This document shows positions 17,507 to 23,852 of a stretch of 64,000 nucleotides of DNA, one piece after another. Position 1 is the stretch's first letter, and the number at the start of each line of letters is the position of its first letter. The stretch lies in NCBI GenBank assembly GCA_040753815.1, contig JBFMDU010000005.1, forward strand, positions 85,350 through 149,349, in the 5' to 3' direction. The translations under genes were made by a program, and so were the position numbers. The notes beneath the pieces were generated by a model. The model did no database searches, was not told the origin of the DNA, and saw only the letters and a program-made list of their open reading frames with translations. Source of the DNA: Chloroflexota bacterium. GTDB taxonomy: Bacteria; Chloroflexota; Dehalococcoidia; GIF9; JBFMDU01.

Positions 17507-18264
17507 GAGCCTCCTCCTCTATTAGTGTGGCACCTGATACAAGATAGCACAGGTCGCGGTAGTTTGTAAGACCTGCCCCGCCTGCTATGTTGCCTTACCC
17601 CCATGACATCTGGCTGTATTCGCAAGTTAACAAATAATTAATATTTGTGTGATAAAATGAGCACATTGAAAGCTTACCGGAGATAGAACCGGTGACTCAT
17701 TTCTCGTCTGACACCTGGAGGTAACAACTCCCATGCTGAACCATCGGCATATGCGGCAGGTCATAAGCGCCATCAGTATCATTACCCTGTTAACATTAAG
17801 CCTGCTGTTATCGAGTCCGACATCTGCGGCGGCAACCATCAATGTATCCCCCGCCAGCGGTACCGTCGGAACAAGCGTGACGGTAACTGGAACCGTCGAT
17901 GCTAACGGAAACACCTTTGAAATACAGTGGGACGGGGCGGCTATTACCAGCGGATCCGCTCCGTCAGGAAGCACCAACATCACCTCTACCTTCAGCATCC
18001 CGAACACCACGGGAGGCGTGCATACCGTTACCCTGAAAGACACGGCAACACAGGTCACAGCATCAACAACCGTCACGGTCAACCCGGCAATAACAGTAAC
18101 CCCTGCAACCGGCTCGGTGGGCACGATTATCACTGTTAATGGCTCGGGGTTCAACGCCAGCGAGACCGGTGTTACCATCAACTACGACGGAACGCCCACA
18201 AATGCTGTTGTAACCGTCAGCTCTTCAGGGAGCTGGTCCACTACTTTCAACATCCCGGACAGCC

Positions 18265-18374
18265 CATCCAGCCTAACCCACTCTGTCAGCATCACACGCA
18301 CTATTATGCCCAGCAATACGGCACGGCGTGGTCTATGCATCCAGCCTAACCCACTCTGTCAGCATCACACGCAC
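18265..18374. repeat. 37-bp perfect direct repeat flanking a 36-bp unrelated insert
   Basis: CATCCAGCCTAACCCACTCTGTCAGCATCACACGCAC at 18265-18301 and 18338-18374; insert TATTATGCCCAGCAATACGGCACGGCGTGGTCTATG at 18302-18337. Confidence 0.95.
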
Positions 18375-18975
18375 AGCTACCGGCGCCAGCATACCTCCCA
18401 GCCAGAACCTGACCGTCACCCCCAGCTTTACCATTACTCCAACTACCGGAGTTGTCGGCACCAGCATCACCGCCACAGGTAAAGGCTTCGCCGCCAATGA
18501 AACTGGCATCAACGTATCCATCAACGGCGAAAGTGTTAAAACCGGCCTTACCGCAGACACCAACGGAAGCTGGCAAAGCACCTTCGCCTTACCCGATAGC
18601 CCCGGCGGCACATGCAGCATCGGCGTTTATGGTTCGACAACGGGCTCTGGTGCTATAACACCCCACGCTTTCACAGTCGTTCCTCAAGTCACGATGAGTC
18701 CGAGTTCCGGCAGCGCCGGTACCCAGGTTACGGTAACCGGCACCGGCTTCGGAGCCGGGGAGACCGGCATCACCGTAATGTTTGGCAACATCGCTGTAGG
18801 CCAGGGGATTACCGCAAACACGAAAGGAAGATGGACCACCACATTCATCGTACCGATAGGAAGCGGCGGAGGGCAGGTTGTAAACGCCTACGGAAGTATT
18901 ACCAGCGCTTCTCAGGTCGCGGGGTTAAGTTTCAATGTCACAGCGCGCATCGCAGTCAGCCAGAACTCAGGAACG

Positions 18976-19796
18976 GTCGGCGACACGGTAAATGTCACCG
19001 GCCAGAGCTTCGGCGCTAACGAGACTGGCATCAGCATCCTCTACGACGGCTCCCCGGTCGCCAGCAATCTCACCGCCAGCGCCACCGGCGACTGGACCGC
19101 TACCTTTACCATCCCACCAAGCACCACTGGTAATCACCGTATCGGCGCCTCCGGCGCCTTCACCGCCGCCGCTTCAGTGCCCGAGCAGGGATTCTCGGTC
19201 ACCCCCAAGCTCTCCATCACCCCGGCTACCGGCGCCGTCGGCACCCAGATAACCATAACCGGCACCGGCTTCGCCGCCACCAGACCAGTGACCCTCTCTT
19301 ACGATAACCAGCCTGTTACCCCAACCTCCGGTACCACCCAAAGCACGGCTCAGGGCAACATCACCGCTACTTTCAACGCCCCCAAGAGCAAGGGCGGCGT
19401 CCATAAAATCATAGTCAGCGACGGCACCAACCAGCGCGACAGCGACTGGACCATGGAAAGCACCCCACCTCCACTACCTGCCCTCTCCAAACCTTCCAAC
19501 GGCGAACTCATCGGCTGGTTCGGCGATGACCCTGTCACCTTCAAATGGTCCGAGATCCAGGACCCCTCCGGTGTCTCCTATACCCTTCACGTCTCAACCG
19601 ATGCCTCCTTCTCTACCCTGGCTATTAAACAAGAGGGCCTTACCAAACCCGAATTTACCACCAGCCCGCTCCCGCTGGGCGTCTACCACTGGCGCGTCAG
19701 GGCTATCGACGGCGCCGATAATACCTCCGACTGGACGCCGGTCATGTCCGTCCGCGTCGGCATTATGCCCTTGTGGGCCTTCATCGCTATCGCAGC
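18976..19796 (+). repeat. Near-identical 821-bp segment shared with 21276-22096
   Basis: Constant 2300-bp offset at both ends with scattered substitutions only; flanking parts of the paralogs are much more diverged. Confidence 0.9.
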
Positions 19797-20108
19797 AGCG
19801 CTTATATGCGTCATGGCGATAGTCATTTTTACACTGATGCGCCGCCGCTCATCAGCACCTTGGTAGAGAACTACACAGGGTTTATTCCAACCGGTCAGGA
19901 CCGGTGAGCCGATGCTCTCCACCTTAAACCACAGCACCAGCCAGCCTTTTCAGGGAAACTGTCATTTCTCCGGCACCGCCCGCGAACTGGCAGAAATCAC
20001 TGAACCATCCGCTGAGCTATCCGTTATTAGTGGTAGAATAATGTCAATAACGTTGACCGGAATCAGTATCGTCTGGTTCGCCTCACCATAGTCTGGGAGG
20101 ACAACATC

Positions 20109-23100
20109 ATGCGGAATATAAAAACCACCTGGGCCAGGCTGATAGCCAGTCTGGTTCTAGCCGCAATTGCCACAGCGCCTCTGCTCTTCACGGCGCCGAC
20201 GCAAGCGGTAACAATCATGATTTCACCGACCAGCGGCCCCGTCGGCACTACGGTGACGGTGACCGGTGCGGTCGATGGTAATGGGAACTCCTATGATGTG
20301 TTGTGGGATAATGTAGTTGTCCAAAACGGGACGGCTGCGGCGAGCAGTGTTATTGTATCTACCGCCATCACCGTGCCGGTGACAAATGGCGGCACGCACA
20401 CCGTCGCGCTGAGAGATGCCTTAACTCTAAACTCTGTTTCGACAACCTTCACTGTTACCCCGACCATCACAATAACACCGACCAGCGGCACCGTCGGCAC
20501 CACCATAACCATGAATGGTACCGGCTTTGATAACGGTGAGACCGGTATCTCGATTACCTATAATGCCAACACAATCAAGAGCAATATTTCTGCAGATACC
20601 ACAGGGAGCTGGTCAACTACCTTCAACATCCCGGACAGCCCTTCCGGTGCGACACACGTTGTCGGCGTATCACGTACTGCCACCGGAGCTACTGCTCCAA
20701 CCAGTCAGAACCTGACAGTCGTACCCAGTTTCACAGTAACCCCGACCAGCGGCACAATCAGCACCAGCATTACTGTCACTGGCAAGGGTTTCGCCGCCAG
20801 TGAAACCATAACTATAACAATCGACGATGAGAGCGCAAAGACTGGAATTGCCACAGACACCAACGGTAGCTGGCTGAGTACCTTTGCCTTCCCCGACAGC
20901 CCGGGCGGCGTACACAACATCGGCGTCTACGGCTCGACCACGAGCACCGGCACTGTGACTGATAAGACCTTCACCGTAAGTCCCGGCATCACGGTAACCC
21001 CCAGCACCGGCACGGTCGGCACCCAGGTTACGGTAACCGGCACCGGCTTCGGAGCCGGGGAGACCGGCATCGTTGTAACTTTCAATGCTATGTCTGTCAG
21101 CTCCGGTATTACCGCCTCAACCAAAGGCCGATGGACGACAACCTTCCAGGTGCCGTCTGGCGCCGGCGGTGCACACAGCATATCGGCCTACGGCAACACG
21201 ACGCCGGCCTCGGGATTAGCAACGGCGACCTTTGGCATAGTCGCCCGCATCACCGTTAACCCTGCCAGTGGAGTAGTCGGCGACACAGTGAATGTCACCG
21301 GCCAGAGCTTCGGCGCTAACGAGACTGGCATCAGCATCCTCTACGACGGCTCCCCGGTCGCCAGCAATCTCACCGCCAGCGCCACCGGCGACTGGACCGC
21401 TACCTTTACTATCCCTCCAAGCACCACCGGTAATCACCGCATCGGCGCCTCCGGCGCCTTCACCGCCGCCGCCTCAGTGCCCGAACAGGGATTCTCTGTC
21501 ACCCCCAAACTCTCCATCACCCCGGCTACCGGCGCCGTCGGCACCCAGATAACCATAACCGGCACCGGCTTCGCCGCCGCCAGACCAGTGACCATCTCTT
21601 ACGATAACCAGCCTGTTACCCCAACCTCCGGTACCGCCCAAAGCACCGCTCAGGGCAACATCACCGCCACCTTAAACGCCCCCAAGAGCAAGGGCGGCGT
21701 ACACAAAATCACAGTCAGTGACGGCACCAGCCAGCGCGACAGTGACTGGACCATGGAAAACACCCCACCTCCACTACCTGCCCTCTCCAAACCTTCCAAC
21801 GGCGAACTCATCGGCTGGTTCGGCGATGACCCTGTCACCTTCAAATGGTCCGAGGTCCAGGACCCCTCCGGTGTCTCCTATACCCTTCACGTCTCGACCG
21901 ATGCTTCCTTCTCTACCCTGGCTATTAAACAAGAAGGCCTCACCAAACCCGAATTTACCAGCGGCCCGCTCCCACTGGGCGCTTACCACTGGCGCGTCAA
22001 GGCTATCGACGGCGCCGATAATGCCTCCGACTGGACGCCGGTCATGTCCGTCCGCGTCGGCATCATGCCCTTGTGGGCCTTCATCGCTATCGCAGCCCTG
22101 GTCTTCGCTATTCTTGGCGCCGTTATTTTCCTCCTCGTCGGCCGGAAAGGCCGGAGCGTACCAAGAGCGAAGCGGGAAAAGTTACCGAAGGCAAAACCCA
22201 GGCGCATAAGCGAACCGGAGTTAGAGGCTGAACTGAGGCCTGTAGAGGAAGCGGAGGAGGTGAGTGAAGGAGAACCCGAACCAACGCCACCACCGCCGCC
22301 ACCACCCAGAGCGGTGCCTAAGACACCAGCCAAGGCTGTACCACCCCACACGACTGCGCCTCAGCCATCTCCTGCTCCATCACCTCAACCCGAGATAGAG
22401 CCCGACCAGGCTGAGACCGAAGAAATCGTAATCAAAGCGGTATCCGGACTCACCGATACCGATATCAGCCTTCTCGCCCAGCGTGAAGACCTGCGGCAGC
22501 GCGGGCTCACCCTGGCCAAACTCTATAGAATCTGTTCCCGTCTTGAGCGAGAGGGTAGACTCGTCCGCGACCGGAACGACCGCTATCAGCCATCGGGCAT
22601 ACCGGCCGGTGGTAAACCAACCCCACCAGAACCACCGCTGGCAAAAGCGCCGGTACCACCACACGAGGGGATTGTCGCCGAAGAGCCAACCAGGCCGCCG
22701 TCGAAGCCAAAGCCGGTGGCCCGGCCGGCGCCATCCGTGGAAAGTCCACCCGGACTGGTGAAGAAGGCGCCGCCGCCAGAAGAGCCATCACTGCCGCCAC
22801 CACAGGCTGACACGTTAGACCCGGAGACCGAACAACTGGTAGCCGACTCCGTAATCGGCATGAGCGATGCCGATATAACTCAGGTCGCCCAGTCCGAACT
22901 TATCCGCTCACGCGGACTAACCCTAGCCAGGGTCTACAAGATTGTCGGCCGGCTGGAGAAAGGCGGCCAACTGGTCCGTGACGATAATGGCCGCTATCAA
23001 AAGGCAGCAGGCAAAGCCATACCGAAACCACCAGCTAAAGAAGAGACCTTCCCAACCTGGGAGAAACCCGGTGCGGAGGAGAATGAAGCGATTGAAACGG

Positions 23101-23852
23101 TTGGCTTGGAAGACTACAGGCCGCTTGAGAAACCACCAACCGCTAAGGAAACCAAGCCACAGCTAAAACCAGCCGGCACAACTGAGGAAATTTTCGATGT
23201 CGTGATCGAGGCGATAGTTAACCAGACCGATGCCGACATACCACAGATCGCCCAGCAACCTGAACTCAGGTCACGCGGCCTGAACCTGGCCAAAATATAT
23301 CAGATAACCAGCCGGCTGGAGAAAGATGGCAGAATAATCCGTGACGACGCCGGTTATTACCGGCGGGCAACCGGTAAACCCGAGAAGACAGAACCCCCAA
23401 AACGCTTCACTACTATCGAATGGACAGGCAAACTGCCCTGGCAACAATGGTCGCAGTTCTACGCCCAGGTGCTATCAGCATACCTTACTGAAGACGTGCT
23501 GAGTATCGACGTCTACTTCAAAGTAGGTCCCGAAGCCAGTATATCCAGCGAAAAGCTTGAAGAAACCCGAGCGGCGCTCAGAGAACTCAAACTGAGCGAC
23601 GAAATGACAGCGGAACGCCGAGCAGACGCGCCAGCGCGGCTCTCAAGAGTCGAACGGTCAGGAAACCTGCCGTGGCAGAGCTGGGAGGCTTTCTTCGCCA
23701 AAGTGCTCTCGCGGTTCCTGTCCGAGACCACTCTCTCTATCTCTGTCAGCGTGAAGGCAGTCTCGAAGGCCGGCTTCAATCAGGCCCGGGTTGATGGGAC
23801 TACCGCCGCTCTAAAAGGCCTGGCCCTTACCCCTGACCTCAAGGTTTCTTAA
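20109..23852 (+). CDS. Single-pass membrane protein: 6 Ig-like + FN3-like ectodomain, TM, Pro-rich linkers, 3 wHTH-like repeats, 2 C-terminal alpha/beta repeats
   Basis: 1247 aa; signal peptide; repeats IT(V/I)xPxxGxVGTxxTVTGxGF; TM LWAFIAIAALVFAILGAVIFLLV; 3x RGLxLAxxYxIxxRLExxGxxxRD; 2x (W/R)xGxLPWQxWxxFxAxVLSxxL. Confidence 0.88.
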   Translation: MRNIKTTWARLIASLVLAAIATAPLLFTAPTQAVTIMISPTSGPVGTTVTVTGAVDGNGNSYDVLWDNVVVQNGTAAASSVIVSTAITVPVTNGGTHTVALRDALTLNSVSTTFTVTPTITITPTSGTVGTTITMNGTGFDNGETGISITYNANTIKSNISADTTGSWSTTFNIPDSPSGATHVVGVSRTATGATAPTSQNLTVVPSFTVTPTSGTISTSITVTGKGFAASETITITIDDESAKTGIATDTNGSWLSTFAFPDSPGGVHNIGVYGSTTSTGTVTDKTFTVSPGITVTPSTGTVGTQVTVTGTGFGAGETGIVVTFNAMSVSSGITASTKGRWTTTFQVPSGAGGAHSISAYGNTTPASGLATATFGIVARITVNPASGVVGDTVNVTGQSFGANETGISILYDGSPVASNLTASATGDWTATFTIPPSTTGNHRIGASGAFTAAASVPEQGFSVTPKLSITPATGAVGTQITITGTGFAAARPVTISYDNQPVTPTSGTAQSTAQGNITATLNAPKSKGGVHKITVSDGTSQRDSDWTMENTPPPLPALSKPSNGELIGWFGDDPVTFKWSEVQDPSGVSYTLHVSTDASFSTLAIKQEGLTKPEFTSGPLPLGAYHWRVKAIDGADNASDWTPVMSVRVGIMPLWAFIAIAALVFAILGAVIFLLVGRKGRSVPRAKREKLPKAKPRRISEPELEAELRPVEEAEEVSEGEPEPTPPPPPPPRAVPKTPAKAVPPHTTAPQPSPAPSPQPEIEPDQAETEEIVIKAVSGLTDTDISLLAQREDLRQRGLTLAKLYRICSRLEREGRLVRDRNDRYQPSGIPAGGKPTPPEPPLAKAPVPPHEGIVAEEPTRPPSKPKPVARPAPSVESPPGLVKKAPPPEEPSLPPPQADTLDPETEQLVADSVIGMSDADITQVAQSELIRSRGLTLARVYKIVGRLEKGGQLVRDDNGRYQKAAGKAIPKPPAKEETFPTWEKPGAEENEAIETVGLEDYRPLEKPPTAKETKPQLKPAGTTEEIFDVVIEAIVNQTDADIPQIAQQPELRSRGLNLAKIYQITSRLEKDGRIIRDDAGYYRRATGKPEKTEPPKRFTTIEWTGKLPWQQWSQFYAQVLSAYLTEDVLSIDVYFKVGPEASISSEKLEETRAALRELKLSDEMTAERRADAPARLSRVERSGNLPWQSWEAFFAKVLSRFLSETTLSISVSVKAVSKAGFNQARVDGTTAALKGLALTPDLKVS

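What the first reader, a model, noticed from the sequence alone, without database searches (positions are those of the whole stretch)
18265..18374. CRISPR-like repeat-spacer-repeat scar (37/36/37 bp) inside a surface-protein gene
Seen: 37 bp of native coding sequence is perfectly duplicated around a 36-bp unrelated insert. This adds 73 bp and frameshifts the Ig-repeat gene; the paralog has no insert. The duplication is far longer than IS target-site duplications, and both lengths match CRISPR repeat and spacer sizes. Known: Cas1-Cas2 can integrate spacers off-target and duplicate the target. Inference: this may be a natural off-target acquisition event (a neo-CRISPR). Recombination between the repeats would restore the ORF exactly, so it could also act as a reversible ON/OFF switch.
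Basis: partly seen in the sequence, partly recalled or inferred. Interest (0 to 1): 0.75.

Follow-up and report, generated by a model that had tools for sequence, protein, structure and literature searches.

The report
Off-target CRISPR spacer insertion scar
A 36-base DNA fragment flanked by an exact 37-base duplication splits a surface-protein gene, and it is most likely a recent wrong-address insertion by this bacterium's own CRISPR spacer-integrating enzyme (Cas1-Cas2), a rare natural trace of a phenomenon so far shown mainly in the laboratory.

Summary
A 37-bp stretch of native coding sequence (window 18265-18301) is repeated at 18338-18374 around an unrelated 36-bp insert. This splits an IPT/TIG surface-protein gene, and joining the flanks restores a 686-aa frame collinear with the tandem paralogue.

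The host, an uncultured Dehalococcoidia with a 1.99-Mb assembly, has intact cas1-cas2 beside a type III-A (Csm) locus. Its CRISPR repeat is exactly 37 nt and its spacers are 36-41 nt, with 36 nt in six of 24.

A genome-wide scan found only one other such structure, on contig C17: again 37/36/37, with unrelated sequences, splitting a Yip1 membrane-protein gene. Its insert is an exact copy of host DNA at the obg start. That source lies within 465 bp of the source sites of the two newest spacers in the canonical array (chance about 6e-4).

This ties the scars to the adaptation machinery. Off-target Cas1-Cas2 integration ("neo-CRISPR") is the best explanation, at about 0.85.

Open points:
- The source of the window's own insert was not found.
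- Resemblance of this target to the native leader-repeat junction is weak.
- The ON/OFF switch idea is at best a one-way revertible knock-out.

This is a new member of a known kind.

The parts
18265..18301 (.). Copy 1 of the duplicated 37-bp target (native coding sequence of the IPT/TIG gene)
   Evidence: 100% identical to 18338-18374, with boundaries fixed by mismatching outside bases.
18302..18337 (.). 36-bp insert X1, spacer-like, source unknown
   Evidence: Unique in the window and genome. No match in viral, metagenome, species-genome or phage collections or in 201 genomes of the order. Its length equals a frequent native spacer length.
18338..18374 (.). Copy 2 of the duplicated 37-bp target
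17733..18482 (+). N-terminal fragment of the split IPT/TIG surface-protein gene. Native frame up to 18301, then frameshifted read-through to a stop.
   Evidence: PF01833 TIG.
18328..19866 (+). C-terminal fragment of the same gene. Native frame from 18338; the ORF opens at a GTG inside the insert.
   Evidence: four TIG domains; the public gene call P0001 is this fragment.
20109..23852 (+). Tandem paralogue with the uninterrupted (empty) version of the site
   Evidence: 83% nt identity and a single copy of the R1-equivalent (FNIPDSPSGATHVVGVSRTATGAT).

Best explanation
The scar is a full-site, off-target integration of one prespacer by the host's own Cas1-Cas2 integrase.

Shown:
- The scar's geometry.
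- The native 37-nt repeat and 36-41-nt spacers.
- Intact cas1-cas2.
- A second scar with identical geometry on contig C17.
- The shared source region of that second insert and the two newest array spacers.

Inferred mechanism: Cas1-Cas2 carrying a 36-bp fragment made its two staggered attacks 37 bp apart, the native repeat length, on opposite strands of ordinary coding DNA instead of at the leader-proximal CRISPR repeat. Gap repair then duplicated the 37-bp target on both sides of the insert.

Consequences:
- The event is recent, since the two copies are still identical.
- It knocks out one of two tandem IPT/TIG surface-protein genes.
- It is a scar, not a working CRISPR unit. The duplicated sequence lacks the Cas6-type hairpin of the native repeat, and only one spacer was added.
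For: (1) Duplication of 37 bp and insert of 36 bp, exact.
(2) The native array at C1:1515-3119 has a repeat of exactly 37 nt. Its 24 unique spacers are 36-41 nt, six of them 36 nt.
(3) Cas1 and Cas2 are full length beside Cas6 and a Csm effector, with the leader next to cas2.
(4) Genome-wide, only one other structure of this kind exists, at C17:28158-28267. It is also 37/36/37, with unrelated repeat and insert sequences, and it splits a Yip1-domain gene.
(5) That second insert is a 36/36 exact copy of C10:1815-1850, at the obg start. The two leader-proximal canonical spacers are exact copies of C10:1538-1577 and C10:1386-1423. All three sources lie within 465 bp. The chance of a random source falling this close is about 6e-4.
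(6) The two inserts are unrelated to each other (P 0.2-0.4), so they are not footprints of one element.
(7) Both targets start with G and end with G or C, 37 bp apart, and carry leader-junction-like bases: tagct|GT and ctgcg|GC against the native tagcg|GT. Site 2 matches 21 of 47 positions of leader plus repeat, P=0.006.
(8) Precedent: P. furiosus Cas1-Cas2 makes full-site integrations at non-CRISPR sites with G/C one repeat length apart (PMC6698737). A type III-A Cas1-Cas2 is promiscuous without HU (PMC13769266). No HU/IHF-family gene was detected in this genome or in 25 relatives.
Against: - No source for X1 was found anywhere, so for the window's own scar the 'captured fragment' step rests on analogy with site 2.
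- Over the whole leader plus repeat, site 1 is no more like the native target than random DNA (15/47, P=0.34). The junction-window statistics (P about 0.003) were chosen after looking.
- No reads could be examined, so physical reality and fixation are unverified.
- Only one assembly of this organism was available.
- A later check of another finding in this scan (e1-3342317) reported that similar scars in one actinobacterial genus did not track with cas1. An unknown Cas-independent mechanism therefore cannot be dismissed in general.
Confidence: 0.85

Rival explanations
1. A Cas-independent process produced a target duplication plus a short templated insert. Candidates are an unknown integrase, or replication template switching or break repair that copies a short stretch from elsewhere.
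For:: a later check of a similar multi-scar finding in another genome found no association with cas1 within that genus. X2 is copied from the host chromosome, which template switching could also do.
Against: - Both events have exactly the native repeat length (37) and a native spacer length (36).
- There is no microhomology at the X2 junctions beyond one base.
- The X2 source lies in the same 465-bp region as the two newest canonical spacers, which only the adaptation machinery explains.
- Only one Cas1-family gene is present in the genome, and no other candidate integrase was sought.
Confidence: 0.07
2. Assembly or sequencing artefact in a metagenome-assembled genome.
For: The genome is a 23-contig, roughly 90%-complete assembly with strain heterogeneity in the CRISPR arrays. 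Reads could not be checked.
Against: An artefact would have to create, on two different contigs, precise 37-bp duplications of unique coding sequence around 36-bp inserts, with lengths that happen to equal the organism's own CRISPR geometry. It would also have to take one insert from the very region sampled by the array. The 37-bp length does not correspond to common assembler k-mer overlaps (my own knowledge).
Confidence: 0.04
3. A programmed reversible ON/OFF (phase-variation) switch of the surface protein.
For: Deletion between the two 37-bp direct repeats would restore the ORF exactly. The target is a surface protein with a tandem paralogue.
Against: There is no mechanism for the OFF direction other than a new random integration. 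The second scar is in an unrelated membrane-protein gene. No polymorphism data exist. The structure is unique rather than a conserved feature of homologues.
Confidence: 0.03
4. Footprint or target-site duplication of a transposon or MITE.
For: Direct repeats flank an insert.
Against: The 37-bp duplication is far longer than known IS duplications (my own knowledge). The inserts have no terminal inverted repeats and are unrelated to each other. One insert is a verbatim piece of the obg start region.
Confidence: 0.01

Closest known systems
Non-canonical (off-target) Cas1-Cas2 spacer integration generating neo-CRISPR loci. Source: Nivala, Shipman and Church 2018, Nat Microbiol, as cited in bioRxiv 10.1101/148544. 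Off-target acquisition is also listed as one proposed origin of isolated arrays by Shmakov et al. 2020, as cited in PMC13142298.
   Same: A spacer-sized insert is flanked by a duplication of the target equal to the native repeat length, at a non-CRISPR chromosomal site, in a genome with active-looking cas1-cas2.
   Different: The published in vivo demonstration is E. coli type I-E with over-expressed Cas1-Cas2, and natural cases were only circumstantial. Here the events are natural and sit next to a type III-A system with 37-nt repeats. Both lie inside protein-coding genes. One carries a self-derived insert that can be traced to the same hot spot as canonical spacers.
In vitro full-site integration at non-CRISPR sequences by Pyrococcus furiosus Cas1-Cas2 (PMC6698737)
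   Same: The integration borders are G/C residues one repeat length apart, with a few positionally conserved bases, mainly at the leader-repeat junction.
   Different: That system is archaeal with 30-bp repeats, tested on plasmid substrates in vitro. Here the site preference rests on two sites only and is statistically weak for site 1.
Type III-A adaptation in Thermotoga profunda, where HU restrains off-target integration (PMC13769266)
   Same: A type III-A-associated Cas1-Cas2 with intrinsically low target fidelity.
   Different: No HU/IHF-family gene was detected in this genome or in 25 relatives. If a fidelity factor exists here it is a different protein. This is an inference, not a test.

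Membership tests
Off-target Cas1-Cas2 spacer integration (neo-CRISPR scar) | Target duplication equals the native CRISPR repeat length | tested here: met
   37 bp at both scars. The native repeat is exactly 37 nt in 27 copies.
Off-target Cas1-Cas2 spacer integration (neo-CRISPR scar) | Insert length within the native spacer length range | tested here: met
   36 bp at both scars. Native spacers are 36-41 nt, six of 24 being 36 nt.
Off-target Cas1-Cas2 spacer integration (neo-CRISPR scar) | Intact cas1 and cas2 in the same genome | tested here: met
   Cas1 matches TIGR00287 at 302 bits over its full length. Cas2 matches TIGR01573 at 71 bits. Both lie adjacent to the leader and array.
Off-target Cas1-Cas2 spacer integration (neo-CRISPR scar) | The insert is a captured copy of DNA from elsewhere (a protospacer) | tested here: inconclusive
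   Met for the second scar: X2 = C10:1815-1850, 36/36. Not met for the window's insert X1, for which no source was found.
Off-target Cas1-Cas2 spacer integration (neo-CRISPR scar) | The insert source is shared with the canonical adaptation pathway | tested here: met
   The X2 source lies within 465 bp of the sources of the two newest array spacers, P about 6e-4. This applies to scar 2 only.
Off-target Cas1-Cas2 spacer integration (neo-CRISPR scar) | The target resembles the native leader-repeat junction and repeat | tested here: inconclusive
   Site 2 scores 21/47, P=0.006. Site 1 scores 15/47, P=0.34. Junction windows give 12/21 for both sites, P about 0.003, but the windows were chosen post hoc.
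Off-target Cas1-Cas2 spacer integration (neo-CRISPR scar) | Physically present in the DNA (spanning reads) and dependent on Cas1-Cas2 | not testable with these tools
No independent assembly was found.
Functional CRISPR array | Repeats carry the Cas6-type hairpin and 8-nt handle of the native repeat | tested here: not met
   The native repeat folds into a 6-bp stem followed by GGAAC (-7.5 kcal/mol). R1 has no comparable hairpin on the + strand (-0.4) and a different, irregular fold on the - strand.
Functional CRISPR array | Growth beyond one spacer, with a leader | tested here: not met
   Each scar has two repeats and one spacer only. The flank similarity to the leader is limited to 3-4 bases.
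IS/MITE insertion or excision footprint | Terminal inverted repeats, or shared element ends, with a short target duplication | tested here: not met
   There are no inverted repeats at the insert ends. X1 and X2 are unrelated. The duplication is 37 bp.
Phase-variation switch | Both states interconvert and coexist in the population | not testable with these tools
   There is no read access. Only the OFF-to-ON direction has a plausible mechanism.

The most novel reading that the evidence does not exclude
This Dehalococcoidia lineage has no detectable HU/IHF-type fidelity factor. On this reading, its type III-A-associated Cas1-Cas2 recently went through a burst of self-directed acquisition centred on the dnaA-obg (probably origin-proximal) region. 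It wrote host fragments both into the array and into ordinary genes. CRISPR adaptation would then act as a natural insertional mutagen, whose repeat-length duplications make the knock-outs precisely revertible. The hits that survive, in a redundant surface protein and an accessory membrane protein, could even be selected, for example by loss of a phage receptor.
Probability: 0.2. Interest if true: 0.75.

Novelty: new member of a known kind. Interest (0 to 1): 0.6.

Why it matters
Off-target spacer integration has been demonstrated in vivo essentially only in E. coli over-expressing Cas1-Cas2. Natural cases are few and circumstantial.

This case matters for four reasons:
- **Internal cross-check:** two fresh scars in one wild genome, one of them tied through a shared source hot spot to the newest spacers of the real array.
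- **Fitness cost:** CRISPR adaptation can disrupt genes in nature.
- **Ruler rule:** the rule that the duplication equals the repeat length holds for a type III-A-associated integrase with 37-nt repeats.
- **Array birth:** it gives concrete sequences (two empty sites, a leader-repeat and a cas1-cas2 pair) for testing what directs integration in a lineage without HU/IHF, and how new arrays might begin.

Tried and rejected
- **Source of X1.** I ran exact searches in viral, metagenome and species-genome collections and BLAST against phages (chance hits only). I also ran blastn-short against the host assembly (nothing longer than 12 nt) and a search with up to 3 mismatches in 201 genomes of the order. 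Wobble-masked patterns went into viral contigs in all three phases and into the order in one phase. All were negative.
- **X2 in external collections.** No match in viral or metagenome contigs. Its source is the host itself.
- **Independent assemblies.** Exact-protein look-ups of the neighbour gene and the N-terminal fragment found nothing on record.
- **Orthologous empty sites in relatives.** The same-genus genome has only a distant homologue of the surface gene (66% nt) and lacks the Yip1 gene between relA and hisS. The paralogue and P0002/P0003 served instead.
- **Exact CRISPR repeat in other species.** None found; only weak relatives in the order.
- **Shared element footprint.** Rejected, because X1 and X2 are unrelated.
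- **Tandem duplication.** Rejected, because the sequence after copy 2 is unrelated to X1.
- **RNA-derived spacers through an RT.** No RT was found in the genome.
- **Papers not held.** The Nivala 2018 and Shmakov 2020 papers are not in the library and are cited through papers that cite them.

Full report
**Observation.** The sequence is as described. A 37-bp stretch, CATCCAGCCTAACCCACTCTGTCAGCATCACACGCAC, occurs at window 18265-18301 and again at 18338-18374 with no mismatch. Between the copies lies a 36-bp insert, TATTATGCCCAGCAATACGGCACGGCGTGGTCTATG. The bases immediately outside the two copies differ, so the lengths 37 and 36 are exact. The extra 73 bp breaks one gene into ORFs 17733-18482 and 18328-19866.

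Joining the flanks in a script gives a 686-aa open frame with a signal peptide, IPT/TIG repeats (PF01833) and a C-terminal membrane anchor. This frame is collinear with the paralogue 240 bp downstream (window 20109-23852)...FNIPDSPSSLTHSVSITRTATGAS... against ...FNIPDSPSGATHVVGVSRTATGAT.... An intact 650-aa homologue from another metagenome (P0002, 72% identity) also reads through with a single copy. The duplicated 37-mer is therefore native coding sequence and the 36-mer is an insertion.

**The host's CRISPR system.** The window is C5:85350-149349 of a 1.985-Mb, 23-contig assembly that is about 90% complete. Earlier notes of this scan call it an uncultured Dehalococcoidia, and the names on homologous proteins agree. 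The genome has one cas1.

On contig C1 the minus strand carries, in order, cas10/csm1, csm2, csm3, csm4, a CARF gene, cas6, cas1 and cas2. A leader of about 115 bp and an array follow. No csm5 was detected. The repeat is exactly 37 nt: GTAGGAAAGACGAACGTCCTCGAAAGGGGATTGGAAC in the transcribed orientation, which has a 6-bp hairpin and a 3' ATTGGAAC handle. The 24 unique spacers are 36-41 nt, and six of them are 36 nt. The scar in the window therefore has exactly the geometry that this integrase produces at its proper site.

**A second scar.** I scanned the whole genome for exact direct repeats of at least 20 bp spaced up to 300 bp apart, and separately for 37-mers at least 31/37 identical at spacings of 60-94 bp. 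Apart from the CRISPR arrays and ordinary tandem repeats, only two structures stand out. One is the finding. The other is at C17:28158-28267.

The second is also 37/36/37, with repeat GCTTCAATGAAACAGCGGCTCTCCTGGGCTTTGCCGC and insert TTTACTTTAGATACGGTAGTGTTAACAGTGGATAGA. It splits a Yip1-domain membrane-protein gene between relA/spoT and hisS. The same-genus relative lacks that gene at this position. The two repeats are unrelated, and so are the two inserts (alignment scores within the shuffled range, P 0.2-0.4). This excludes a shared mobile element.

**Where the inserts come from.** The second insert is an exact 36/36 copy of C10:1815-1850. That stretch covers the start of obg and lies about 120 bp downstream of dnaA.

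I then compared all canonical spacers with the genome. The three leader-proximal, and so most recent, spacers are all exact self-matches:
- Newest spacer: C10:1538-1577, inside obg.
- Second newest: C10:1386-1423, inside obg.
- Third newest: C21:195711-195746, inside enolase.

The ectopic insert and the two newest array spacers were thus all taken from one 465-bp stretch of the host chromosome. For a randomly placed source the chance of this is about 6e-4. This is the strongest link between the scars and the adaptation machinery, and a Cas-independent process does not explain it.

The window's own insert could not be traced. There was no match in the assembly longer than 12 nt. Nothing matched in the viral, metagenome, species-genome or phage collections, nor in 201 genomes of the order. 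That is the usual fate of CRISPR spacers. It does mean that, for this scar, capture of a fragment is inferred by analogy with the second scar.

**Target choice.** In the orientation where the leader-like side is to the right on the + strand, the junctions read tagct|GT (site 1) and ctgcg|GC (site 2), against the native tagcg|GT. The distal ends read GCTGGATG and ATTGAAGC, against the native ATTGGAAC. With windows of 6+6+9 positions both sites match 12 of 21, P about 0.003 against random genomic sites, but I chose those windows after looking.

A plain test over 10 leader plus 37 repeat positions gives 21/47 (P=0.006) for site 2 and only 15/47 (P=0.34) for site 1. For site 2 both orientations score alike. 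Both targets begin with G and end with G or C, 37 bp apart. That fits what was found for P. furiosus Cas1-Cas2 at non-CRISPR sites in vitro (PMC6698737). I treat the site-preference evidence as suggestive only.

**Mechanism.** The shown elements are the geometry, the matching native system, the second event and the shared source region. The inferred step is that Cas1-Cas2 loaded with a 36-bp prespacer attacked two phosphodiesters 37 bp apart on opposite strands of the surface-protein gene, and that repair of the two single-stranded gaps duplicated the 37-bp target.

The identity of the two copies, and for site 2 of insert and source, points to recent events. Both hits are in genes that are probably dispensable: one has a tandem paralogue and the other is absent from a congener. 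That is what survivorship would leave.

A type III-A Cas1-Cas2 from Thermotoga profunda is promiscuous in vitro unless HU is added (PMC13769266). No HU/IHF-family gene (PF00216) was detected here or in 25 relatives, while the bacterial controls were positive. That may contribute to low fidelity, but this is an inference. No reverse transcriptase was found, so the fragments were presumably taken from DNA.

**Rivals.** An assembly artefact would need to reproduce the organism's own CRISPR geometry twice, on different contigs, with one insert from the array's own source region.

A Cas-independent duplication-insertion process deserves mention. A later check of a similar finding elsewhere in this scan saw no association with cas1 in one genus. 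Here the exact length match at both sites and the shared hot spot argue against it (about 0.07). A transposon footprint is excluded by the lack of shared ends.

The ON/OFF switch idea is only half right. Slippage or recombination between the 37-bp repeats would restore the gene exactly, but nothing would re-create the insertion, so this is at most a revertible knock-out.

**Comparison with what is known.** The closest known phenomenon is non-canonical spacer integration giving neo-CRISPR loci. It was shown in E. coli with over-expressed Cas1-Cas2, with circumstantial natural cases in two other species (Nivala et al. 2018, as described in bioRxiv 10.1101/148544). It is also listed among the proposed origins of isolated arrays (Shmakov et al. 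2020, as cited in PMC13142298).

This case meets the features that could be tested: repeat-length duplication, spacer-length insert, intact cas1-cas2 and, for the sister scar, a traceable protospacer shared with the canonical pathway. It is not a functional CRISPR array. The duplicated sequence lacks the native hairpin and each locus has a single spacer. I class it as a new member of a known kind. It is notable for being natural, for sitting beside a type III-A system, for disrupting genes, and for its internal cross-check through the shared hot spot.

**Unexplained.** The crRNA from the third-newest spacer would be antisense to enolase mRNA, with no protective tag complementarity. Yet Cas10 keeps its HD and GGDD motifs, and Csm2-4 look intact. 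Why such a self-targeting spacer is tolerated is open. The two obg spacers would give sense-strand crRNAs and should be harmless.

Noticed in passing
Outside the window: G000 contig C17:28158-28267: A second, independent 37/36/37 scar splits a Yip1-domain membrane-protein gene between relA/spoT and hisS. Its insert is an exact copy of C10:1815-1850, at the obg start region.
   Followed up: yes
Outside the window: G000 contig C1:2895-3082 (array) versus C10:1386-1577 and C21:195711-195746: The three newest canonical spacers are exact matches to the host's own obg (two) and enolase (one). The enolase spacer would give a crRNA antisense to the mRNA although the Csm effector looks intact (Cas10 HD and GGDD present, no csm5 detected). 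Why this is tolerated is unexplained.
   Followed up: partly
Outside the window: G000 contig C10:1386-1850, next to dnaA (C10:1973-3415, minus strand): Three of the four traceable protospacers cluster in 465 bp just downstream of dnaA. This may be an origin-proximal acquisition hot spot.
   Followed up: partly
Whole genome and 25 relatives of the same order: No HU/IHF-family gene (PF00216) was detected in any of 26 genomes, while all nine bacterial control genomes that should have one were positive. This lineage seems to lack the usual nucleoid protein that guides spacer integration in other systems.
   Followed up: partly
window 22000-23852 (C-terminal part of the paralogue, ORF 20109-23852): After its membrane anchor the paralogue carries a cytoplasmic extension of about 560 aa. 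It has proline-rich linkers and three repeats of a module of about 60 aa (…DADI..IAQ..L.SRGL.LAK.Y.I..RLEK.G...RD..G.Y…). The split gene lacks this extension. Function unknown.
   Followed up: no
Outside the window: G000 contig C1:2-340 and the end of C23: A second small array with the same repeat bridges contigs C23 and C1. It shows one spacer three times in a row and a one-base spacer variant between the contigs, which suggests strain heterogeneity or assembly collapse. Its cas-side repeat has a changed end base.
   Followed up: no
Outside the window: G000 contig C21:7528-7700: A diverged tandem repeat of about 72 bp whose unit contains GTCATTGAAAC, reminiscent of a CRISPR repeat 3' end. It is not a 37/36 scar, and its nature is unknown.
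   Followed up: no
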